Assembly: GCA_944392815.1 (NCBI GenBank)
Contig: CALXXY010000002.1
Location: 128,001 to 192,000 of the forward strand
Origin: an uncultured Alphaproteobacteria bacterium
GTDB lineage: Bacteria; Pseudomonadota; Alphaproteobacteria; Rs-D84
Direction of reading: 5' to 3'
Length of the DNA: 64,000 bases
The position numbers were made by a program, and so were the translations under genes. Positions 40,133 through 56,232 of this stretch are shown here, piece after piece. The notes under the pieces were generated by a model. That model had not been told where the DNA came from and ran no database searches. It saw nothing but the letters and a program-made list of their open reading frames with translations. Every line of letters begins with the position of its first letter. Position 1 is the stretch's first letter.

Positions 40133-41476
40133 TTAACCTTCTAAAAATGCGCGCAACGCATCGCCAACGAGTGGTGCGTCCGCCCCGGACGGCAATTGCC
40201 CCGCATCAACAATAGATATAATACGCGGCGACATAAACACCACCAATTCAGCAAACGGACTGATTAACGTTTCAGGCGTCGTCACAAACGAATGTGTTGG
40301 AATACCAATAATTACATAATTATCCCCAACATCAGACGGTATATTAAACGAAGACAATTCCCCATTGCTGGTACGCAAAACTATTTTGGCGTCTATTTTA
40401 TTTTTACCACCCCAATCGCCATATGTACCGGTTGCACCGATTACCAAATCGGTTTCCAATCTGTCTTCTTTGCTGCATTGTCCAATATCAAAACGCGATT
40501 GCCAACCATTGGGAATCACGAACGTACCCTGGGAAATCAAAACAACATTGGATTGCTGTGCCAAAAATTCCTGTAAAGTTTTTGTATTAATCTCAGGACT
40601 GACCACCAGCGCACGCCCCACAACACCCGGAATTGACATTTTAATATTTTTATCCCCGAACGCAGGCAATAAATTCATCCAGATAATTGGATTGTCCGTC
40701 CGCGGATACACACGATACACATCAATGTCCCACGCAATCATATATTTTTTGGACGCAACATCAGAAATAATTTTGGCCACTTCGCGTTCTGTTTGATAAT
40801 TACCCTCGAACACCATGGTTTTATCCTGCCAATCAACCAATAAATTACGCACATCAGCCCCATGCATAGCGTCCAACAATGCCATAATAATACTTTCGTT
40901 TTTTGGCATTTTAATCAACCATTTGCCCCGATTATCCAAATGAATTTCTGCATTTTCTGCATCATATGAATAATACGCACGCCCCATTTTCGCCATCAGT
41001 TCCACACTGTCGGCCAAATTTCCCGCGGTAATGGTGCCCGATATAGTATCATTCAATTCACCATCTTCGACAACGGCAATATCAGTCCCCTGCAACAGTT
41101 TATCCAATGCCTCTTTGACGGTTAACTGTTCAAATTCGTAATCAGACACCTGTAATTCTGGCAACGCATCACCCGTGCCCAACCGTATCATTTCTATTTT
41201 TTCTTCGGGTACAACGGACACAACAGTTTGATTATCCCAATCCACAGTGCACCGCTTTGGTAATTCGATGGAAAAACGCTGGGCGGTATCAGTTGTCAAC
41301 GCGGCCTTTTTCGGGAAAATAGGCACAGAATTTTCATCAATCACAAAATTTTCAACAACATTTATGGTGTCGTATTGCGGAATATTTTCCTGGGCATTTT
41401 TCTGTGTGCACCCCAAACATACCAGCGCAGTCACAATCAACGCCCCGCCGCCAAACAATTTGTTTAATATTTTCAT
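40133..41476 (-). CDS. Lipoprotein with secretin N-domain-like region (PilN/BfpB-like, tentative)
   Basis: CLGC lipobox; TVKEALDKLL and GNLADSVELMAK...YYSY resemble secretin N0/STN region; ends ELVVFMSPRII. Confidence 0.5.
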   Translation of the reverse strand: MKILNKLFGGGALIVTALVCLGCTQKNAQENIPQYDTINVVENFVIDENSVPIFPKKAALTTDTAQRFSIELPKRCTVDWDNQTVVSVVPEEKIEMIRLGTGDALPELQVSDYEFEQLTVKEALDKLLQGTDIAVVEDGELNDTISGTITAGNLADSVELMAKMGRAYYSYDAENAEIHLDNRGKWLIKMPKNESIIMALLDAMHGADVRNLLVDWQDKTMVFEGNYQTEREVAKIISDVASKKYMIAWDIDVYRVYPRTDNPIIWMNLLPAFGDKNIKMSIPGVVGRALVVSPEINTKTLQEFLAQQSNVVLISQGTFVIPNGWQSRFDIGQCSKEDRLETDLVIGATGTYGDWGGKNKIDAKIVLRTSNGELSSFNIPSDVGDNYVIIGIPTHSFVTTPETLISPFAELVVFMSPRIISIVDAGQLPSGADAPLVGDALRAFLEG

Positions 41477-41513
41477 GTTGTCCCCTTGCCTTTCGTTATC
41501 GCCTGTGGTCAAA

Positions 41514-41840
41514 CTATATGTTCATTATACGTTCGAATTCCTCCAGCGTCATTTCATAAATAGGTTTTTGTGTTGGCGTGGTCAATTCACGCACATGTTC
41601 ATATTGTTCACCAAATTTTTTTATCACCGCCGCAACGTTTGCCGGCACAGCATTTTTATTTGCGTCCAACAACCGCCGCCCGTATTCATAAACATATTCC
41701 AACACGTCCGCCAAAAAGAATCGCCCAACATAGTTTTCCATTGCGATTCCGCCCTTTTGCACGCATATTGCAGACATGACCATTGTCATCTGGTTATACA
41801 AATTCGCCAGTTTAATAAAATTTTGAACTGTCAACGCCAT
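41514..41840 (-). CDS. Hypothetical protein
   Basis: 108-aa ORF with AGGA RBS, first gene of the minus-strand run. Confidence 0.7.
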   Translation of the reverse strand: MALTVQNFIKLANLYNQMTMVMSAICVQKGGIAMENYVGRFFLADVLEYVYEYGRRLLDANKNAVPANVAAVIKKFGEQYEHVRELTTPTQKPIYEMTLEEFERIMNI

Positions 41841-41916: not shown

Positions 41917-42297
41917 ATGAGAATTAAATACATAGCGTTTGCATTAATATTGACCGCATGTGCGTCCGCCAATCGCGGCAGTATTGATGACGCCACAATA
42001 TTGAATTGGGAAAACGAATCCGTCACCATGGAACAATTCGTCCGCGATCACAAATCGTGCCTGGGCATAGATAAACCATCATACATGCCCCGTTCCCGTA
42101 TTGCGAAACTGCTGTCCCCGAACCAAAGCAGTATTATGCCCGATTGGGACGGCCTGTGGGTGACATTCCAATCCAATGAATACAGGGACGTTGGCCAACG
42201 CGCATTGTTATCAGTGCCACGAAACACCACGTCTAAATCGGTTGGTGCATATCGTAAATGTATGTTCCGCCGCGGGTATTTGTTGCGCGCGATGTAA
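41917..42297 (+). CDS. Hypothetical lipoprotein
   Basis: LTAC lipobox; DHKSC ... YRKCMFRRGY. Confidence 0.8.
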   Translation: MRIKYIAFALILTACASANRGSIDDATILNWENESVTMEQFVRDHKSCLGIDKPSYMPRSRIAKLLSPNQSSIMPDWDGLWVTFQSNEYRDVGQRALLSVPRNTTSKSVGAYRKCMFRRGYLLRAM

Positions 42298-42348: not shown

Positions 42349-43029
42349 ATGAAACGTTCCATATGGTTTTGGCTGTATTTTGTTATCGCAATTATTTTGG
42401 CGGTATATTTCGCAACCCAGATTATAATTACCTGCACGGGTCGTGGCGATTTATCATATGTGCGCAACATTTCCATTACCGCGGACGTCGCAAACAAAGA
42501 TTTAACCCCCATCGCGGCCGCGGCGGCGGTGGCCCCGGGCACACGTGCATTTGGCCACACACTGGACGAAATAAATGCCCGCATTGCGGCAACCCCGGGC
42601 GTTAAAAACAGCGCTGTGCGCCGTTTACCAAACGGGAATCTGTCTGTACATGTTGAATTATATCAACCTGTTGCCCAATGGACAGATGGGTTGCAGTATT
42701 ATCCACTGTCGGCCGACGGCACAATTGTAAACAAACCAACGGACACGCGTGATGAAAACACGGTCGTTTTTCGTGGCGACGTACCGGACAACATTGGTGA
42801 TATAACCGCCGCCGCCCATAATATTATCGCTGATTTGAATTATTTGGAATTTATCGAACACAGACGCTGGAATTTGCATACAACAGGCGGCATTACTGTA
42901 ATGTTGCCTGAACATAACCCAGCGGACGCGATTGCACGCCTGAACGTATTGAACCAAAATCACCAGATTTTATCCCGGGACATCGATATTTTGGACATGC
43001 GTGACGATGCGCGAATATTGGTAAAATAA
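42349..43029 (+). CDS. ftsQ: Cell division protein FtsQ
   Basis: N-terminal TM, POTRA (VKNSAVRRLPN), RRWNL, ILDMR. Confidence 0.88.
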   Translation: MKRSIWFWLYFVIAIILAVYFATQIIITCTGRGDLSYVRNISITADVANKDLTPIAAAAAVAPGTRAFGHTLDEINARIAATPGVKNSAVRRLPNGNLSVHVELYQPVAQWTDGLQYYPLSADGTIVNKPTDTRDENTVVFRGDVPDNIGDITAAAHNIIADLNYLEFIEHRRWNLHTTGGITVMLPEHNPADAIARLNVLNQNHQILSRDIDILDMRDDARILVK

Positions 43030-43036
43030 ACACGAA

Positions 43037-44821
43037 ATGAATTTGCTGGATTCATCTTTTTTATGCTTGGACATTGGGACGGGCGGTGTCCGCGGTATTG
43101 CGCACCACGTGCGAAATGGTCGCATTGCAAAATCGGCCGTGTATTCTGTGGACAACACGGATACAGTATTTGCATTAAAATCTGTAATCGATGAATTGGA
43201 AAATCAAATTGGCGATCATTTTGATAACGCGTATATCACAGGCAACCTGGGGCCAACCATATTTAAAATCAGTCCCAAAACAAAAAATTGGCGTGGCGAA
43301 CATAAAATAGTCCCATCGGACGTGACGGCACTGGTTTCACAAATTACCCCGCCTGATGGATATTATCCGTTGCATATAATTCCATTACGATACAAAACAA
43401 CAAACATTCAAAAATTATATTCGCCCATTGGATATACAGACACGTCCCTGACCGCGATATTCAGCGCAATATTTTATTCCACCGAATCCACGGAAAAAAT
43501 CACATCCATTTTGCGCGCTGCACATATACAACCATATTCTTTTTATGATCCCCAATTTTTACAGGCGATGGAACACCACGCAAAAAAATCTGCGGAACTC
43601 TATATTGATTTTGGCGCTGAATTCACCAGTATTTTAATCTGGTTGGATAACGGCCCGGTATTTCAACAAAAAATTCCATTTGGCGGGACAAACATTACAA
43701 ATGACATTTCTGAAAAATTGGGAATTGATTTTAACGTCGCTGAACAAATAAAACGTCGCGTTGCATGTATGATGCCAAACGAAATGGACAGATTTACCCC
43801 CGCCGACGCCGCATACGATTTTTCACGTGCGGACGTAAATGGAATAATTGTCCCACACATGGTTGACATTTGCGCCCGTATCAAGGACGCCTGTGCCGCC
43901 CCATTCAAACACCGCATGCCGAACAAAATATTTATATCTGGTGGCGGGGCAGAAATTGAATCAATATCCGATTTTATTGAAAATGTGTTCGGATTACCCG
44001 TGGAAAACATTCATGTATCGGCCAGTGTCCAGTCACTGTCCACATACATCTGGAACGCGGAATCGGCACACCGCAACGCATACAGCGCACGCAGCGAACG
44101 CATAAATAACATACGCACACGCATCGTATCATTGTTTACACCGCGTCCCAAAAAACGGATTCAATTTATCCCTGTAATGCCCAGCACCCTGTGTTTTGAT
44201 ATGAAAAGTCCGGAAACATATTCCATGTTTCGTTCGGGTGGAATATCAATGATACACGTTGATATAATGGACGGGCTGTATGTGGAAAATATCCGTGGCA
44301 GTATTGCTGAATTAAAATATATCCGCACGCATACAAATGCCCACCTGCATGTACATTTAATGACCGAAAGTCCGACCGTCTGGGCATCAGACGCCATTGC
44401 CGCCGGCGCCAACACAATTATTGTATCAACGAACACATCAGGCGTGCGTGCAGCCATTCGTCAAATTCACGCGGCGGGCCGCCGTGCGGGCGTTGCGTTA
44501 AATCCCGACTCGTCAGTCCAGATATTAAAACCAATCCTGCGCGAATTGGACGAGGTTATGGTCATGGCCGTCGCCCCCGGTGCCGCGGGCCAACCATTTG
44601 ACGACAGTGTTTTGCACAAAATATCAGTATTGGCCGCAACGCGCAAAAAACACGGATTAAAATATATAATTTCTGTTGATGGCGGAATAAATAACGAAAC
44701 CGCCCAAAAATGCTGGGCGGCGGGCGCAGATTTATTGATCAGTGGTTCATACCTGGCACACAGTGCGGATTTCCCATTGGCCGTACAAAGTTTATTAAAA
44801 CATACCGACAAAACAAATTAA
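43037..44821 (+). CDS. FtsA - ribulose-phosphate 3-epimerase fusion
   Basis: N-terminal LDIGT, IDFGAEFT, GGTNITNDI, AEQIK, ISGGGA (FtsA); C-terminal HVDIMDG, VHLM, GVALNP, VDGGIN, GADLLISGS (Rpe). Confidence 0.9.
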   Translation: MNLLDSSFLCLDIGTGGVRGIAHHVRNGRIAKSAVYSVDNTDTVFALKSVIDELENQIGDHFDNAYITGNLGPTIFKISPKTKNWRGEHKIVPSDVTALVSQITPPDGYYPLHIIPLRYKTTNIQKLYSPIGYTDTSLTAIFSAIFYSTESTEKITSILRAAHIQPYSFYDPQFLQAMEHHAKKSAELYIDFGAEFTSILIWLDNGPVFQQKIPFGGTNITNDISEKLGIDFNVAEQIKRRVACMMPNEMDRFTPADAAYDFSRADVNGIIVPHMVDICARIKDACAAPFKHRMPNKIFISGGGAEIESISDFIENVFGLPVENIHVSASVQSLSTYIWNAESAHRNAYSARSERINNIRTRIVSLFTPRPKKRIQFIPVMPSTLCFDMKSPETYSMFRSGGISMIHVDIMDGLYVENIRGSIAELKYIRTHTNAHLHVHLMTESPTVWASDAIAAGANTIIVSTNTSGVRAAIRQIHAAGRRAGVALNPDSSVQILKPILRELDEVMVMAVAPGAAGQPFDDSVLHKISVLAATRKKHGLKYIISVDGGINNETAQKCWAAGADLLISGSYLAHSADFPLAVQSLLKHTDKTN

Positions 44822-45222
44822 TCTGCAATTTCAATGTGACGACTGTCACCATCACCGGTAATATAAATATGAATTGTGTTTTCCGGCAACATATCAGCCG
44901 CAATATCAGGCCATTCGATTAATGTTATATCGTTCTGCACAGCATACGGCAAACCAATTTCGACCAATTCTGATTTATCGTTTATTCTGTATAAATCGAA
45001 ATGCGATATCCCGTCATAGTTCTGCACAATGGTAAACGTCGGACTGGGCACAACAGTATCAGCCCCGCGCAACGTTTGAATAATCGTGCGTGCAATTTCA
45101 GATTTTCCCATACCCAAATCACCATGCAGCGCAACAACACACGGCGCATGCAATTTTTTTGCAAACTCGCGCGCGAATTCGTGTGTTTCATTCAAATTTT
45201 TTAAATCGTATGTTTTTGACAT
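44818..45222 (-). CDS. tsaE: tRNA threonylcarbamoyladenosine biosynthesis ATPase
   Basis: LHGDLGMGKS, VPSPTF, HFDLYR, LIEWP. Confidence 0.96.
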   Translation of the reverse strand: MSKTYDLKNLNETHEFAREFAKKLHAPCVVALHGDLGMGKSEIARTIIQTLRGADTVVPSPTFTIVQNYDGISHFDLYRINDKSELVEIGLPYAVQNDITLIEWPDIAADMLPENTIHIYITGDGDSRHIEIAD

Positions 45223-51994: not shown

Positions 51995-52029
51995 TTTGGT
52001 CCCTTTGTTTTTACCGGGCACCATAAACG

Positions 52030-52165
52030 AAAAAATCGGAAACGGCACCCATATTTAAATTTCAGGGGCGCAATGGAATCACTGCGCGGTGCCACCCTGA
52101 TTTATCACTTTGATTGGGATTTGCGAACTCCGTGGTTGTCAGTCACATCATCGTCCCCGCCCCCG
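52030..52165 (-). promoter_or_regulatory. T-box riboswitch (Asp, GAC specifier) with ultrashort Stem I
   Basis: Minus strand UCAGGG-UGGCACC-GCGCAGUG(auuc)CAUUGCGC-CCCUGA antiterminator; K-turn stem GGAC-GAU-GA-UGUG[ACUGACAAC]CACG-GA-GUUC; upstream of aspS. Confidence 0.82.
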
Positions 52166-52302
52166 AAAAATATCAGATGTCTATACAACACTAATACAAG
52201 CTATCTAAATATCTTTTCTTAAGACATCTTACAACAGTAAGATTCTATAATTAGAATACTTGAAAAGCAAGTAATATTCAACAGTCATATACACAAACAA
52301 AA

Positions 52303-53361
52303 TTATGTTTTTAAAATATACAATAATTCACTAACATATTGTTTTTTCGTGTTTTTTTTATTGATATGACTATTATATCTCGGGTATTTTAATCTTACCA
52401 CTTCAACATTACCATATTTAGATAACACAGATTTTATATCTTTTTCTGACATTATACCTTCTGAACTATAAGATAAAATAAGATACTTATACTTTGCAGA
52501 ACTAGCTATTCTATCAAGATCCTGTAATGCTGTTTTTTTATTACAAAAAGACGATTTTTGATGTTCATATCCCCTTATCCCCGTAATTCCATGTATAACA
52601 GGATTATCATACTTTGCTATTGTTTCCAATAAATGATAATTAGGTGCATATTGTCTGGCATTATACGGCGGATCTAAATACAAAATATCTGTATTTATAT
52701 TTTCTAATAAAGTTAAACTATCAACATTAAATGCCATATTTTTTGACTTATTAAATACTAAATCAATAGGTTTAATTATAAATGGTTTTAATGCTCTGGG
52801 GTCCCATTTTTTATTAAATGCCGCATACACCCCAGATATATTGGCAAACAATCCAACACTTTCAATCAAACAGGCCAACAAAATATAATATTCATCATCT
52901 GTTAATAAATTTTTACTTTTCCATTTTTCTATCTGAATTCGTATCGCATCTATTTTCTGTGCATTCGCATCAGACAAATACATTCTGGGAATTTTTAAAT
53001 CTTTGGTTCCACCAACAGAGTAATTATTATAAATAAACCCAGAAACAGGTTCCAACTTGTTCAAATACGCAAGAACTATATCTAACGGAGATTCTAACAA
53101 TACCTTCTCAGCTTTTGCTATTTCTGGTATAATTTGTGCGAATTTTGGTTCCGAGTTATTTACAATATATGCCCGTTGCAAACAATACGATAAATATAAA
53201 AAATCGCAAGAGGTTACCGAATAGCCTTTTCTTTTAAAGAATTTTGCAACACTGGCAGTTCCGCTAAAAAAATCAAAGAATGTTTTGCCACTGACATTTT
53301 TTTGTTCCAAAGCCAGATATATTTTATCAAGCAAACTTTCTTTGTTTCCTATAAACCTCAT
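52303..53361 (-). CDS. DNA adenine methyltransferase (FokI-like, D12 class)
   Basis: MRFIGNK, FDFFSGT, YLDPPYNARQY..NYHLLET. Confidence 0.93.
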   Translation of the reverse strand: MRFIGNKESLLDKIYLALEQKNVSGKTFFDFFSGTASVAKFFKRKGYSVTSCDFLYLSYCLQRAYIVNNSEPKFAQIIPEIAKAEKVLLESPLDIVLAYLNKLEPVSGFIYNNYSVGGTKDLKIPRMYLSDANAQKIDAIRIQIEKWKSKNLLTDDEYYILLACLIESVGLFANISGVYAAFNKKWDPRALKPFIIKPIDLVFNKSKNMAFNVDSLTLLENINTDILYLDPPYNARQYAPNYHLLETIAKYDNPVIHGITGIRGYEHQKSSFCNKKTALQDLDRIASSAKYKYLILSYSSEGIMSEKDIKSVLSKYGNVEVVRLKYPRYNSHINKKNTKKQYVSELLYILKT

Positions 53362-54316
53362 ATTCTGACTCTTTTGTAGACAACAATGACTCGTTCGCTA
53401 TATTACGACATTCTGGGATATAATTAGTTATCAAAACTTCTCGGGTTGCGGTTTTATCACGTATCTTTAAATGATAATTTGAATTCGAATAATCCATATC
53501 TATCTCTGTCACACAATAATCAGAATGCAACATCAGCCAATTCATTAAAATCTCATTGACTCTACCTTTGTGCATTAAAACATTCGACAAAGCAAACCTA
53601 ACACCTTTTCTTGTCAAATTATCCAATAAATTTAATAATTTTAATTCTTCCGACTCATTCCAACCCTTGAACCCACGTTTACCATCGTTATACGTGCCAG
53701 TCGTTATAAGATACGGCGGATCTGCATACACAAAATCACTTGTCCCCAGGCCGGACACATCGAATACAGCAAAATCTTTATCACTAAACTCTATATCAAT
53801 TTTGTGCAACCTGTCTATAAACGCCAGTAAATTTTTTTCCATACATGGATTATAAGCACTTCTATTTTTGCCAAATGGATTATTAAATTCATGCGAATTA
53901 TTAAATCTGATTTGATGATTAAATGAATATGCTACTAAAACAAATAAGTCCAACGGATTTTTATATTTATTATATAATAATCTTAATTCGTTATATCCGG
54001 ACACATTGGTCAAAGACAAATCAAATTCCGATATTCTGCCATATATATGATTTAAAACATCTTGTTGTGATAATTTTTTTAAAACACTATACAGATCAAC
54101 AAGATACGTTAAATTATCATTTAATATAATTTTCCCAGCGGAAACATTTACCCCAACATTTCCACCGCCCGCAAATAAATCAACAAAACAATTTATGTTA
54201 TCCGGAAACAACGGCACCAATTGGGGTAACAGTTTATATTTACCACCTATGTAGTTCAATGGTGACTTTACAAAAACATCTGCTGTTCTACTCACTTCCT
54301 GCCGCCGCTGTTTCAA
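53327..54316 (-). CDS. DNA adenine methyltransferase (Dam-like, D12 class)
   Basis: KSPLNYIGGK, DLFAGG, YADPPYLIT, EVLITNY. Confidence 0.93.
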   Translation of the reverse strand: MKQRRQEVSRTADVFVKSPLNYIGGKYKLLPQLVPLFPDNINCFVDLFAGGGNVGVNVSAGKIILNDNLTYLVDLYSVLKKLSQQDVLNHIYGRISEFDLSLTNVSGYNELRLLYNKYKNPLDLFVLVAYSFNHQIRFNNSHEFNNPFGKNRSAYNPCMEKNLLAFIDRLHKIDIEFSDKDFAVFDVSGLGTSDFVYADPPYLITTGTYNDGKRGFKGWNESEELKLLNLLDNLTRKGVRFALSNVLMHKGRVNEILMNWLMLHSDYCVTEIDMDYSNSNYHLKIRDKTATREVLITNYIPECRNIANESLLSTKESEYEVYRKQRKFA

Positions 54317-55688
54317 TTGCTTTTTTGATTAAACTTGGGGGATTTGGCCCCAAAATCAAATCTCCATTTTCATTTAACAAAAATCCGACATCCAGTTCAA
54401 CAACTTTCGTATTATTACTTCCATATAAAACAACCGTCCTGACTGTTTGAATCCCAGGATAATATTTATTAACATACTCTTCATCAAACGCATCATACAG
54501 TTTTATTTGATTCACCCCATTGATTCTTTTGGAATATTTTTTTCCTTCTATTTCAACAATAAACCCAGATTGCACATCAAACATAACCAAATCAGGAATA
54601 TGTATAATTTTTGCTTTATTTCCTGACTTATATTCTACCCTGTTTTCATATTTTTGCAATGGAACAGGCCCGTCATTTGGGGTCAAAAAATACCCTTTTT
54701 CACACCCAGCATGATTTTCAAAAATTAATTTACCATTTGCATAATTTTCAATAGCTAAATGTAAAAATATCGTTGCCAGTTTTTCACCACTATTCTCATA
54801 ATGCCAGTATTCTTTTTCTATATCTGCCTTTGGTACATCAATCCCATCTAGTTTAATATTTAACTTATTCGCTATTTGAACAAATTTATTGTTTTTACCC
54901 ACATGTTTTTGTTCCAAACCATGTTTTGTTATAATAATATCTTTATCCCAACCTAATTTCCGTAACACGCACGAAATAGCTGACAGTGCCCCTATATTCG
55001 GATCATGCGCTAAACTACCATTTTTATATAATCTGCCGGAAATTTCTATTCGGTCATCTTTTTTTGTAATACTAATTGGTACATTAGTCACAGGCGCATT
55101 TCTCATACACGATTTAAAATCTATTAATTCGTCTACAGAACTAAATGGAGCATATCGTTCTTTAATTATTTTTTCATCTACTACCTGTATATCTACACCC
55201 ATAGTCAGCAATAATCGTGTTCCAAATATATTCGTTTGTGTTGGTTTCTTTGACGGCGTTATCTGTAAATTGTACAGCATAATTTTACGAATACCTGGAT
55301 ACACATAATTTATATATACAAATTTTGTACACCTTTGATATATAGCAGTATTACGACTTTCACTATCATCTGTTTTGGTTTCTTCTATCGCACATACAGG
55401 TATATCATCTAATTTTGGTTCTGTATCCTGATAAAATACTAAAAAATCAACAAAACTAGATTTTCCAGATACAATTTTAATAAATACGTCACTTACCACA
55501 CAATTTGTAAAGCCAACCAATGTGTATACAAATGTAAATTTACCGTCTTTTAATATCGGGACTATTCTTGTATCTTTATTAAAAACAGTATCACCACAAA
55601 CACCTTGTAATATTTTACATACCACAGCCACCTTTGGCCTTTCTTCGGTCAATATCCAAACACAAGATTTCTTATACGCTTTACACAT
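54288..55688 (-). CDS. Putative type II restriction endonuclease
   Basis: Overlaps two MTase genes; candidate PD-(D/E)XK motifs VDFL...EETK and PDLV...EIEGK. Confidence 0.7.
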   Translation of the reverse strand: MCKAYKKSCVWILTEERPKVAVVCKILQGVCGDTVFNKDTRIVPILKDGKFTFVYTLVGFTNCVVSDVFIKIVSGKSSFVDFLVFYQDTEPKLDDIPVCAIEETKTDDSESRNTAIYQRCTKFVYINYVYPGIRKIMLYNLQITPSKKPTQTNIFGTRLLLTMGVDIQVVDEKIIKERYAPFSSVDELIDFKSCMRNAPVTNVPISITKKDDRIEISGRLYKNGSLAHDPNIGALSAISCVLRKLGWDKDIIITKHGLEQKHVGKNNKFVQIANKLNIKLDGIDVPKADIEKEYWHYENSGEKLATIFLHLAIENYANGKLIFENHAGCEKGYFLTPNDGPVPLQKYENRVEYKSGNKAKIIHIPDLVMFDVQSGFIVEIEGKKYSKRINGVNQIKLYDAFDEEYVNKYYPGIQTVRTVVLYGSNNTKVVELDVGFLLNENGDLILGPNPPSLIKKAIETAAAGSE

Positions 55689-55788
55689 GCCGTTTCCTCT
55701 TCAAAAATATTATAACATTCTTCAATACTCATAACACATACAAGTAAAAACAACCAAGCATAAATTTATAACGCCACACTCTATCATC

Positions 55789-56232
55789 ATGCAACAAATT
55801 CAAAAATTAAATGAGCAAAAATCTAAGATGGAGTTGGAATGCAGCATTGAAAAAAAAGATGATATGCCATTTGACCAGGCACTAGCTACAGTATTGTACT
55901 TCGTCACCGACCTTGCTGGTATATGGTCAAAGGCAACTCTACAAGAAAAAAGAACCATTTTATCAATAGTTTTTACAGATAATTTATATTATTCAAAAGA
56001 TAACAAGTTCCAAAATCCGCCAATTTCACCAATATTTCAAATATCAGATGAACTTAAACATTCAATCACAAACATAACCGAAATATATAATTTTTCAGAC
56101 AAAGTCCCAGATCGTGAAAAAAATGACAAAATAAAAGATGAAAAAAATACAAAATCTGGGACTGGCTGTGACCCGCACAAATCAAATGATTTTATAACAA
56201 AAATGGGGGTAAACAATCATCTGGTGCCCTAA
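55789..56232 (+). pseudogene. C-terminal remnant of a site-specific (serine-type) recombinase
   Basis: IWSKATLQEKRTILSIVF resembles large serine recombinase tails; no catalytic domain; stop lies in tRNA 3' end. Confidence 0.55.

What the first reader, a model, noticed from the sequence alone, without database searches (positions are those of the whole stretch)
43037..44821. FtsA fused in frame to ribulose-phosphate 3-epimerase
Seen: one 594-aa ORF with divergent FtsA (about residues 1-370) ending in an amphipathic-looking helix INNIRTRIVSLF, a short basic linker PRPKKR, then a complete Rpe retaining metal ligands (HVD, VHLM, DGG). Known: FtsA normally ends with its membrane-targeting helix, and metabolic enzymes such as UgtP and OpgH couple nutrient state to division. 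I do not know this fusion. Inference: pentose-phosphate enzyme tethered to the divisome, or a streamlining fusion.
Basis: partly seen in the sequence, partly recalled or inferred. Interest (0 to 1): 0.8.

Follow-up and report, generated by a model that had tools for sequence, protein, structure and literature searches.

The report
FtsA–Rpe fusion in FtsZ-less gut bacteria
A cell-division protein (FtsA) and a sugar-phosphate enzyme (Rpe) are truly fused into one protein throughout a family of tiny-genome gut Alphaproteobacteria, and no gene for FtsZ, the normal partner of FtsA, could be found in that family.

Summary
Window 43037..44821 (+) is one 594-aa ORF with a full FtsA fold (residues 1-342), a tail helix (343-368), a basic linker and a complete ribulose-phosphate 3-epimerase (380-590).

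It is not an assembly error. Independent contigs cross the junction without indels. All 122 family genomes examined carry Rpe in a 575-634-aa frame.

Sister families of the same order keep ftsQ-ftsA-rpe as separate, abutting or overlapping genes. The fusion therefore arose from neighbouring genes.

Both halves are under purifying selection: dN/dS is 0.08-0.09 for FtsA and 0.03-0.05 for Rpe. Active-site residues are kept. It is the only Rpe in this genome, which also has transketolase and RpiB.

New finding: FtsZ was found in 0 of 201 genomes of the fusion-bearing family but in 14 of 16 sister-family genomes. FtsQ, FtsK, FtsW, FtsI, MreB and ZapA remain.

Best reading: a bifunctional fusion born from an operon, with FtsA working without FtsZ. 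Whether tethering Rpe is adaptive is not resolved.

The parts
42349..43029 (+). ftsQ (226 aa). It ends 7 nt before the fusion ORF starts.
   Evidence: Pfam FtsQ_DivIB_C PF03799, E 1.5e-9. The same ftsQ-then-ftsA order is seen in 10 other family genera and in sister genomes G025 and G038.
43037..44821 (+). Whole ftsA::rpe fusion ORF, 594 aa plus stop.
43037..44062 (+). FtsA core, residues 1-342 (subdomains 1A, 1C, 2A, 2B).
   Evidence: AF2 model pLDDT about 90-97 over this part. Foldseek best hits are FtsA (3wt0, 7q6f, 1e4g; TM to target 0.70-0.74, E about 1e-23), above PilM (0.56-0.64). The profile aligns to E. coli FtsA residues 13-358 with only short deletions.
44063..44140 (+). Tail helix, residues 343-368, ending ...INNIRTRIVSLF. 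It sits where the C-terminal membrane-targeting helix of unfused sister FtsA sits.
   Evidence: Predicted helix 343-367. Alignment of 32 family sequences shows a recurring hydrophobic-x-x-hydrophobic-F ending. Sister FtsA proteins end ...KVKKWIDDNF or ...KNWIKEKL. The hydrophobic moment (median 0.66) is like the sisters' (0.61-0.83) but is not above shuffles.
44141..44173 (+). Basic, Pro-containing linker, residues 369-379 (PRPKKRIQFIP). It derives from the ancestral Rpe N-terminus.
   Evidence: pLDDT below 50 at 369-374. The stretch after the best helix has a median net charge of +4 in 31 family sequences. Sister Rpe starts MFKKRKQKIQISPSIF.
44174..44818 (+). Ribulose-phosphate 3-epimerase TIM barrel, residues 380-594, with H407, D409, H440 and D548.
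   Evidence: PF00834, E 1.1e-43. 2fli E 3.9e-59. Foldseek TM to target 0.90. Residues are kept in 31 of 32 family sequences.
44818..45222 (-). tsaE, convergent, overlapping the fusion's stop codon. ftsZ does not follow ftsA here.
   Evidence: Pfam TsaE PF02367, E 8.6e-33.

Best explanation
This is a genuine, family-wide gene fusion. In the ancestor of this family of reduced-genome gut Alphaproteobacteria, the stop of ftsA was lost. Source names are 'Candidatus Enterousia' and 'Alphaproteobacteria bacterium'. A paper places Enterousia in order Rs-D84. As a result ftsA and the abutting downstream rpe are read as one protein. Both modules still work. The N-terminal module is an ATP-binding, actin-like FtsA. 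Its former C-terminal membrane helix is now internal and is followed by a short, strongly basic linker. The C-terminal module is the cell's catalytically competent Rpe (Ru5P <-> Xu5P), which feeds transketolase and RpiB. It hangs from the non-catalytic N-terminal face of its barrel, close to the membrane. The family has no detectable FtsZ but keeps FtsQ, FtsK, FtsW, FtsI, MreB and ZapA. FtsA must therefore act without a Z-ring, most likely as a membrane-bound scaffold or activator for the septal peptidoglycan synthases. The fusion itself is most simply a fixed, near-neutral or co-expression-stabilising merger of translationally coupled operon neighbours. Shown here: the ORF, its conservation, its origin, the selection on it, the predicted fold, the conserved residues and the failure to detect FtsZ. 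Inferred: membrane binding, enzyme activity, FtsZ-independent division and neutrality of the fusion.
For: The single ORF and both domains are established. Independent contigs cross the junction with no indels. By my reading of the table, PF00834 lies in a 575-634-aa open frame in all 122 family genomes examined (10 genera, own genome included). Sister families have 199-259-aa frames. ftsA and rpe are separate and abutting or overlapping in 5 sister genomes: G025, G028, G032, G029 and G033. They are separated by one ORF in family f3; that ORF has ABC-transporter domains in G038 and G055, while G057 was judged from ORF sizes only. dN/dS in the two least saturated pairs is 0.08 and 0.09 for FtsA and 0.05 and 0.03 for Rpe. 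ATP-motif residues and Rpe residues H407/D409/H440/D548 are kept in about 30-31 of 32 sequences. The AF2 model has pLDDT 91.6 with FtsA and Rpe folds. There is only one Rpe in the genome, and transketolase and RpiB are present. FtsZ was not found in: the own genome; the own genome by tblastn with 8 sister FtsZ (best E 0.44) or by a sister-FtsZ HMM over 9013 six-frame ORFs (best E 0.15); any of 201 family genomes; or 5 genomes of 1-5 contigs with an order-specific profile. It was found in 14 of 16 sister-family genomes. FtsW and RodA, FtsI and PBP2, FtsK and MreB are present.
Against: ZapA, a Z-ring-associated protein, is retained in 23 of 24 congeners and in the own genome. That is unexpected if FtsZ is truly gone. 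No protein-level or activity data exist. The RNA-library contigs cover parts of both halves but cannot prove one transcript or one polypeptide. The amphipathicity of the tail helix is not above shuffled controls. FtsA in this family is more diverged from sister FtsA (median 49 bits) than sister families are from each other (97 bits), whereas Rpe is not (92 against 110 bits). The FtsA function may therefore have shifted. One species (G100) has lost key residues in both modules yet keeps the ORF. Neutrality of the fusion is an assumption: it has been stable across at least 10 genera, which could equally reflect selection.
Confidence: 0.6

Rival explanations
1. The fusion is adaptive. After FtsZ was lost, the Rpe barrel serves as a cross-linking or regulatory module. 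Homologues are dimers or hexamers. The barrel would give membrane-bound FtsA filaments the multivalency or metabolic input that a Z-ring normally provides, coupling division to pentose-phosphate flux.
For: The fusion and the absence of FtsZ coincide at family level: 122 of 122 genomes fused and 0 of 201 with FtsZ, while sister families are unfused and have FtsZ. ftsA-rpe adjacency predates the fusion across 5 sister families. It was seen in none of 74 stand-alone rpe loci from other taxa, which hints at an older functional link. In all 5 genomes that also hold a separate Rpe paralogue, the fusion and its catalytic residues are retained. Solved Rpe entries contain 6-12 chains. That they form hexamers is my recollection.
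Against: Fusion and FtsZ loss are each one event on the same branch, so the coincidence is a sample of one. Catalytic residues are conserved, as expected for an ordinary enzyme. Abutting or overlapping genes fuse easily without any selection.
Confidence: 0.2
2. The FtsA part no longer acts in division. It survives only as a membrane-anchoring or stabilising N-terminal extension of an essential Rpe.
For: FtsZ, the canonical partner of FtsA, is missing. Known FtsZ-less lineages tabulated in PMC10591338 (Chlamydia, Wolbachia supergroup J) have lost ftsA as well (passages read). FtsA diverged faster on the family stem.
Against: FtsA dN/dS is 0.08-0.09. ATP-binding motif residues are conserved in 29-30 of 31 sequences. 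All four subdomains are similarly conserved, and 2B is not decayed (majority fraction 0.64 against 0.59-0.73). The gene still directly follows ftsQ. FtsW, FtsI and FtsK are retained.
Confidence: 0.12
3. FtsZ is present but was missed, because it is too divergent, on an unbinned replicon or masked. In that case FtsA-Rpe acts as a canonical Z-ring tether that merely carries an enzyme.
For: ZapA is retained. Most of the genomes are metagenome-assembled.
Against: FtsZ was found in 0 of 201 genomes, 179 of them of high quality. The set includes assemblies of 1-2 contigs: G075 and G178 have one contig, G003 and G109 two. The Pfam Tubulin and FtsZ_C models rang in 13 of 14 control genomes. A sister-family FtsZ HMM run at maximum sensitivity gave nothing. 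No tubulin signature motif occurs in any six-frame ORF of 200 aa or more. The phage-like genes that flank ftsZ in sister families are present in the own genome without ftsZ.
Confidence: 0.06
4. The single ORF is an assembly or sequencing artefact, and there are really two genes.
For: None was found.
Against: More than 120 independent assemblies, 32 aligned sequences from 11 genera and contigs from other studies all lack a stop or an indel at the junction.
Confidence: 0.01

Closest known systems
Canonical FtsA (E. coli 7q6d, Vibrio maritimus 7q6f, T. maritima 1e4g/4a2a)
   Same: The fold matches, including the 1C subdomain (TM to target 0.69-0.74). It has nucleotide-binding motif residues, a position directly after ftsQ and a helix where the membrane-targeting sequence lies.
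   Different: It is about 30-35 residues shorter, through small deletions, and only 14-17% identical. The membrane helix is internal rather than C-terminal. A 215-aa enzyme is attached. No FtsZ is detectable in the genome, and ftsZ does not follow ftsA.
Stand-alone ribulose-phosphate 3-epimerase (S. pyogenes 2fli, Synechocystis 1tqj)
   Same: It is a TIM barrel with TM to target 0.90-0.91 and 32-33% identity. The His/Asp/His/Asp positions align. Transketolase and RpiB give the pathway context.
   Different: It is not a free cytosolic protein. Its N-terminus is joined through about 11 basic residues to FtsA.
Unfused ftsQ-ftsA-rpe operons of sister families in the same order (G025, G028, G032, G029, G033)
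   Same: Gene order is the same and the genes are orthologous. The FtsA C-terminal helix and the basic Rpe N-terminus correspond to the junction of the fusion.
   Different: These are two genes with a stop between them. Their genomes carry FtsZ with a canonical C-terminal tail.
Metabolic enzymes that modulate division (OpgH in E. coli, PMC3723540; UgtP in B. subtilis)
   Same: The idea is the same: a sugar-metabolism enzyme physically linked to the division machinery.
   Different: OpgH is a separate protein that localises to the nascent septal site in nutrient-rich growth (abstract start, listing). That it acts by inhibiting FtsZ assembly, and the whole UgtP case, are recalled. Here the link is covalent, it is to FtsA, and FtsZ is absent.
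FtsZ-less, peptidoglycan-containing bacteria (Chlamydia; Planctomycetes; Wolbachia supergroup J)
   Same: There is no FtsZ, while FtsK, FtsQ, FtsW, FtsI and MreB are kept (passages of PMC10591338).
   Different: The Chlamydia and Wolbachia J columns of that paper's table show ftsA lost together with ftsZ. This family keeps FtsA under purifying selection, and ZapA too. It is a gut Alphaproteobacterium with a genome of about 0.9 Mb and is not a known obligate intracellular organism.

Membership tests
FtsA (actin-like division protein) | ASKHA/actin fold with the FtsA-specific 1C subdomain | tested here: met
   Foldseek top hits are FtsA (TM to target 0.70-0.74, E about 1e-23), ranking above PilM (0.56-0.64). 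The profile aligns across E. coli FtsA residues 13-358.
FtsA (actin-like division protein) | Nucleotide-binding motifs: phosphate-1 DxG, phosphate-2 DxG..T, adenosine GGG (motif definitions recalled) | tested here: met
   D12 is kept in 29 of 31 sequences and G14 in 30 of 31. D191, G193 and T197, and G302-304, are kept in most of 32. The exceptions are L029, L031 and L032, plus conservative changes.
FtsA (actin-like division protein) | Amphipathic membrane-targeting helix at the C-terminal end of the FtsA part | tested here: inconclusive
   A helix is predicted at 343-367 and is homologous in position to the sister membrane-targeting helix. The hydrophobic moment is 0.66, but the z-score against shuffles is only 0.19.
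FtsA (actin-like division protein) | Encoded next to ftsQ in the division cluster | tested here: met
   ftsQ ends at 43029 and the fusion starts at 43037. The same order holds in 10 other genera.
FtsA (actin-like division protein) | Works with FtsZ, tethering the Z-ring | tested here: not met
   No FtsZ was found in the own genome or in 201 family genomes.
Ribulose-phosphate 3-epimerase (PF00834) | (beta/alpha)8 barrel of the Rpe family | tested here: met
   PF00834 scores 149 bits against a cut-off of 21.1. TM to target is 0.90 for 2fli and 1tqj.
Ribulose-phosphate 3-epimerase (PF00834) | Metal and catalytic His-x-Asp, His and Asp (residue roles recalled from the 2FLI and human RPE literature) | tested here: met
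   H407, D409 and D548 are kept in 31 of 32 sequences and H440 in 32 of 32. They align to the HIDIMDG, CHLM and VDGG stretches of 2fli.
Ribulose-phosphate 3-epimerase (PF00834) | Pathway partners present | tested here: met
   Transketolase and RpiB are in the own genome. PMC12306168 reports non-oxidative PPP genes without transaldolase in most genomes, in a passage about the Rs-D84 and UBA1242 genomes (passage read).
Ribulose-phosphate 3-epimerase (PF00834) | Epimerase activity | not testable with these tools
   This needs an enzyme assay or complementation.
FtsZ-less bacterial lineages | No tubulin-family gene in complete genomes | tested here: met
   0 of 201 genomes, including assemblies of 1-2 contigs, while controls rang in 13 of 14. 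Caveat: ZapA is retained.

The most novel reading that the evidence does not exclude
A whole family of peptidoglycan-walled gut Alphaproteobacteria divides without FtsZ. It would use a membrane-bound FtsA scaffold whose covalently attached, oligomerising Rpe domain supplies cross-linking and/or a direct read-out of pentose-phosphate metabolism. In this reading the fusion is part of how the Z-ring was replaced, not a by-product of genome streamlining.
Probability: 0.2. Interest if true: 0.9.

Novelty: new variant of a known kind. Interest (0 to 1): 0.72.

Why it matters
FtsA is understood almost entirely as the membrane tether and regulator of FtsZ. In the FtsZ-less lineages tabulated in the literature read here, ftsA was lost along with ftsZ. 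This family keeps FtsA under strong purifying selection with no detectable FtsZ, in at least 201 genomes. It therefore offers a natural system for asking what FtsA does on its own. It also shows that FtsA tolerates a 24-kDa enzyme placed directly after its membrane helix, which bears on how that helix and the FtsA filament are arranged at the membrane. Public annotation names these proteins only 'ribulose-phosphate 3-epimerase'. The division gene is therefore hidden in current records, and automated divisome surveys would score these genomes as lacking both FtsA and FtsZ. I found no paper describing the fusion or the FtsZ loss.

Tried and rejected
1. Docking of the two halves. Complex prediction with FtsA 1-368 against Rpe 376-594, both from alignment A1, returned 'no answer' (score 0.00, controls not run). 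It counts neither for nor against.

2. Amphipathic helix test. The best 11-residue hydrophobic moment was compared with 200 shuffles per sequence. The family median z-score was 0.19, because the basic context also gives high moments in shuffles. This does not discriminate.

3. G100 as a natural experiment. G100 has lost ATP-site and Rpe catalytic residues. Its 4 congeners are all canonical and only 31-36% identical to it, so this is one fast-evolving species and not a lineage-wide pseudoenzyme.

4. Decay of the FtsZ-binding subdomain. Per-subdomain conservation shows 2B no less conserved than 2A or 1C, so there is no support for selective decay. I did not map individual FtsZ-contact residues, because I could only recall them.

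5. Synteny with 1.5-kb flanks gave too few orthologues. The 16-kb flanks were informative.

6. Second Rpe copies as fission products: rejected. They are 31-35% identical paralogues.

7. Fusion outside the family: not found. Among the 150 best of 1.84 billion representatives, 19 proteins of 542-623 aa and 7 shorter fragments cross the junction. The rest are fragments confined to one side of the junction or free Rpe, mostly about 210-230 aa and a few longer, none with an FtsA-side match. In genome contigs, 6 of 80 kept loci are fused, and only those have an FtsA-like ORF beside rpe.

8. The answer itself warns that an empty result without a positive control shows nothing. The profile was built from sister FtsZ sequences.

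9. The frame sizes were checked by eye. G062 (472 aa) and G057 (891 aa) are long open frames in GC-rich DNA that I did not resolve.

10. Supplementary files of papers were not consulted. PMC12306168 may list division genes there.
Full report
OBSERVATION.

The window holds one ORF at 43037..44821 on the + strand. It has an ATG start and codes for 594 aa.
- Pfam finds FtsA (PF14450, residues 189-323, E 7.5e-15) and Ribul_P_3_epim (PF00834, residues 392-573, E 1.1e-43) in the same polypeptide.
- A profile of 68 family sequences aligns residues 7-338 to solved FtsA structures (7q6f, E 7e-23). It aligns residues 380-586 to solved Rpe (2fli, E 3.9e-59).
- An AlphaFold2 model built on that alignment has mean pLDDT 91.6 and pTM 0.61. 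It shows a long helix at 343-367, a low-confidence stretch at 369-374 and the first Rpe strand at 380-383.
- In Foldseek against the PDB, the N-terminal part matches FtsA best (3wt0, 7q6f, 1e4g; TM to target 0.70-0.74, E about 1e-23). This is better than PilM (0.56-0.64). The C-terminal part matches Rpe with TM 0.90.
- The alignment to E. coli FtsA runs over its residues 13-358 with only short deletions.

NOT AN ARTEFACT.

Contigs of public runs were laid on 42900-44900.
- One contig from a different study spans the whole stretch with 20 substitutions and no gap.
- A contig from another study spans 43817-44256 without a gap.
- No insertions, deletions or joints were listed in the 4 runs.
- An RNA-library run has contig pieces over both halves. 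This cannot show a single transcript.

In the 90%-cluster protein database, 119 of the 120 best hits (59-99% identity, 588-599 aa) carry both Pfam domains. The exception is a 543-aa entry. The few names that sources give are 'ribulose-phosphate 3-epimerase' from 'Candidatus Enterousia intestinigallinarum', 'Alphaproteobacteria bacterium' or 'Pseudomonadota bacterium'.

DISTRIBUTION.

The window lies in a 927-kb genome of 18 contigs that is 96.8% complete. The fusion is its only PF00834 match. Across 151 genomes of the order:
- By my reading of the table, all 122 genomes of the window's family (tool code f1, 10 genera, own genome included) have Rpe in an open frame of 575-634 aa.
- Sister families f2, f3, f5 and f6 have it in frames of 199-259 aa. 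Two unresolved long frames in GC-rich DNA and two contig-end fragments are the exceptions.
- I extracted and aligned 32 family sequences from 11 genera. None has a stop at the junction.
- In a search of 1.84 billion 50%-identity representatives, 19 proteins of 542-623 aa and 7 shorter fragments cross the junction, down to 29% identity. The other listed hits are fragments confined to one side of the junction or free Rpe proteins, mostly about 210-230 aa and a few longer. None of these has an FtsA-side match.
These come from MAGs named Enterousia, Alphaproteobacteria or Rickettsiales. Only those 6 have an FtsA-like ORF within 1.5 kb of rpe.

ORIGIN.

Sister families keep the two genes separate but next to each other.
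- G025 (f2) has ftsQ, then ftsA (420 aa, ending ...KILAKVKKWIDDNF), then rpe about 14 nt later (MFKKRKQKIQISPSIF...).
- G028 and G032 (f5) and G029 and G033 (f6) have ftsA followed by an overlapping rpe frame.
- In f3 one ORF of about 490-590 aa lies between them. It has ABC-transporter domains in G038 and G055. G057 was judged from ORF sizes only.

So ftsQ-ftsA-rpe is the ancestral arrangement of the order, and the family-f1 protein is a read-through merger. The 'basic linker' is the old, basic Rpe N-terminus. The recurring family pattern is ...(I/L)xx(I/L)F followed by a K/R-rich stretch with a median net charge of +4. The hydrophobic moment (median 0.66) equals that of the sisters (0.61-0.83) but does not exceed shuffles (median z 0.19). 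Amphipathicity is therefore plausible but not demonstrated.

ARE BOTH HALVES ALIVE?

- Nei-Gojobori dN/dS was computed for the two least saturated pairs. For L048-L060 (dS 0.3), FtsA is 0.08 and Rpe is 0.05. For L058-L059 (dS 0.7), FtsA is 0.09 and Rpe is 0.03. Most of the 231 pairs are saturated in dS.
- Within the genus, mean amino-acid identity is 0.54 for FtsA, 0.45 for the tail and 0.72 for Rpe.
- FtsA nucleotide-binding positions (D12, G14, D191, G193, T197, G302-304) and Rpe positions H407, D409, H440 and D548 are kept in nearly all of the 32 sequences. The roles assigned to these residues are recalled from the literature.
- The outlier is one species, G100, which has changed residues in both active sites. 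Its four congeners are canonical.
- No FtsA subdomain is selectively decayed. Majority fractions are 0.73 for 1A, 0.59 for 1C, 0.63 for 2A and 0.64 for 2B.
- The genome has transketolase and RpiB. This fits a published statement that most of the genomes discussed in that passage (Rs-D84 and UBA1242) have the non-oxidative pentose-phosphate genes except transaldolase (PMC12306168, passages read).
- Five of 107 congeners also hold a separate Rpe paralogue that is 31-35% identical. All five keep the fusion with intact catalytic residues.

THE UNEXPECTED CONTEXT: NO FtsZ.

ftsZ does not follow ftsA here; a convergent tsaE does.
- Pfam Tubulin and FtsZ_C give no match in the own genome. Controls rang in 13 of 14 genomes.
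- tblastn with 8 sister-family FtsZ proteins gives nothing better than E 0.44.
- An HMM of those 8, run with all filters off over 9013 six-frame ORFs, gives a best E of 0.15.
- No ORF of 200 aa or more has a tubulin signature motif.
- Across genomes, 0 of 25 genomes of the genus (24 congeners plus the own genome) have FtsZ, against 14 of 16 sister-family genomes.
- 0 of 201 family genomes in 18 genera have it, 179 of them of high quality.
- 0 of 5 of the most contiguous assemblies (1-5 contigs) have it with an order-specific profile. The tool's caveat about a missing positive control applies.
- In sister genomes ftsZ lies among phage-like genes (portal and terminase pieces). Their orthologues are present on contig C1 of the own genome with no ftsZ among them.

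The rest of the division and wall machinery remains.
- ftsQ.
- Two SEDS proteins and five transpeptidase-domain genes, including an adjacent RodA/PBP2-like pair on contig C6 and a SEDS gene with a transpeptidase gene about 1.7 kb away on contig C5. The RodA/PBP2 and FtsW/FtsI names rest on this gene arrangement.
- FtsK and MreB.

One complication is that ZapA, a Z-ring partner, is also retained in 23 of 24 congeners and in the own genome. I cannot explain this. It is the main reason to keep a small probability that a very aberrant FtsZ exists.

FtsA of this family is also unusually diverged from sister FtsA (median 49 bits, against 97 bits between sister families). Rpe is not (92 against 110 bits). 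This is consistent with a change of constraints on FtsA at the base of the family.

MECHANISM (best reading, confidence 0.6).

Shown: the ORF is single, fixed in the family, derived from operon neighbours, and under purifying selection in both parts. The predicted folds and key residues are intact, and there is no detectable FtsZ.

Inferred:
- The protein binds the membrane through the internal helix and the basic linker.
- The FtsA core binds ATP and polymerises, and acts with FtsQ, FtsK, FtsW and FtsI without a Z-ring.
- The Rpe barrel is tethered by its N-terminal, non-catalytic face. That placement follows from general knowledge of TIM barrels. The barrel remains an active epimerase close to the membrane.
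- The fusion itself needs no adaptive explanation, because abutting or overlapping genes fuse by loss of one stop.

Rivals:
- An adaptive scaffold or metabolic-coupling role for Rpe (0.2).
- FtsA reduced to an anchor for Rpe (0.12).
- A missed FtsZ (0.06).
- An artefact (0.01).

The docking job between the two halves gave no verdict and is not used as evidence.

COMPARISON WITH WHAT IS KNOWN.

The parts are members of FtsA and Rpe by fold, motifs and context. The FtsA feature 'works with FtsZ' is not met.
- OpgH is a separate protein described as localising to the nascent septal site in nutrient-rich growth (PMC3723540, abstract start in the listing). That it acts by inhibiting FtsZ assembly, and the UgtP case, are recalled. 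The analogy to both is therefore loose.
- A review table lists ftsZ and ftsA as jointly absent in Chlamydia and Wolbachia supergroup J (PMC10591338, passages read).
- Reviews name Chlamydiae, Planctomycetes and some Mollicutes as the FtsZ-less bacteria (PMC5147048, PMC4164004 and PMC6952346, passages read).
- I found no paper with the terms FtsA, 'ribulose-phosphate 3-epimerase' and fusion. None combines Rs-D84 with FtsZ. The main text of the paper on these reduced genomes has no mention of FtsZ, FtsA or cell division.
- Supplements were not available, and subscription papers such as Begmatov et al. 2023 on Enterousia were not seen.

VERDICT.

The finding is real and more interesting than first stated. 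The fusion is a new domain architecture of two known families and is fixed in one family. Its origin is mundane. It sits in a lineage that appears to have lost FtsZ while keeping FtsA. Novelty: new variant of a known kind. Interest: 0.72.

Noticed in passing
Own genome contig C1:96000-109000 (L160), outside the window; sister loci L157 and L158: A T7-like phage head module lies here. It has a portal (PF12236), a terminase split into separately encoded nuclease (PF22530) and ATPase (PF03237) pieces with DnaB-like, double-HTH and unknown ORFs between them, a capsid (PF19821) and a Lys/Ala-rich 128-aa ORF. The portal, both terminase pieces and a 571-aa ORF are orthologous and syntenic in two sister families, where ftsZ lies among them. 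This may be a domesticated phage-like or GTA-like cluster.
   Followed up: partly
Own genome C1:150567-150755 (-); 23 of 24 congeners: ZapA (PF05164) is retained although no FtsZ is detectable. What it binds is unexplained.
   Followed up: no
L032 / L071 (G100:C1:79533-81299): One species has a 589-aa intact fusion ORF that has lost FtsA ATP-site residues (D12S, D191N, G193E) and Rpe residues (H407Y, D409T, D548C). It is only 31-36% identical to its four congeners, which are canonical. It has no other Rpe.
   Followed up: partly
L031 (G088, genus g15): This fusion is 575 aa (stop-to-stop frame; 564 aa from its first Met). Its FtsA N-terminus lacks the DxG phosphate-1 motif (D12Y) and its tail helix is shorter.
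   Followed up: no
L015, L026, L040, L041 (sister family f3): An ORF of about 490-590 aa is inserted between ftsA and rpe. It ends in a basic amphipathic-looking tail (...ALFKRIFRKK). In G038 and G055 it has ABC-transporter domains (PF00664, plus PF00005 in G038); G057 (L041) was not scanned.
   Followed up: partly
L042, L166, L167 (G042, G095, G119); also G113 and G142: 5 of 107 congeners carry a second, stand-alone Rpe-family paralogue of about 225 aa. It is 31-35% identical to the fusion's Rpe. In L042 it lies between two ORFs I did not scan (my impression: sugar-metabolism genes), so it is probably an acquired sugar-epimerase gene.
   Followed up: partly
G027 (sister family f4, 0.7 Mb, 93% complete): No FtsZ, no Rpe and no FtsA with this protein query were found, but ZapA and FtsK were. 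This may be a second, independent loss of ftsZ in the order.
   Followed up: no
window 52000-56000: A low-GC island (0.32 against about 0.45) contains a Dam-like N6-adenine methyltransferase (PF02086, 52303-53361, minus strand). It is probably an acquired restriction-modification region.
   Followed up: no
window 40133-41512 (-), 41514-41840 (-), 41917-42297 (+): Three ORFs just upstream of ftsQ have no Pfam family. The 459-aa and 126-aa ones have lipoprotein-like N-termini. The usual mur and ddl genes are not upstream of ftsQ here.
   Followed up: no
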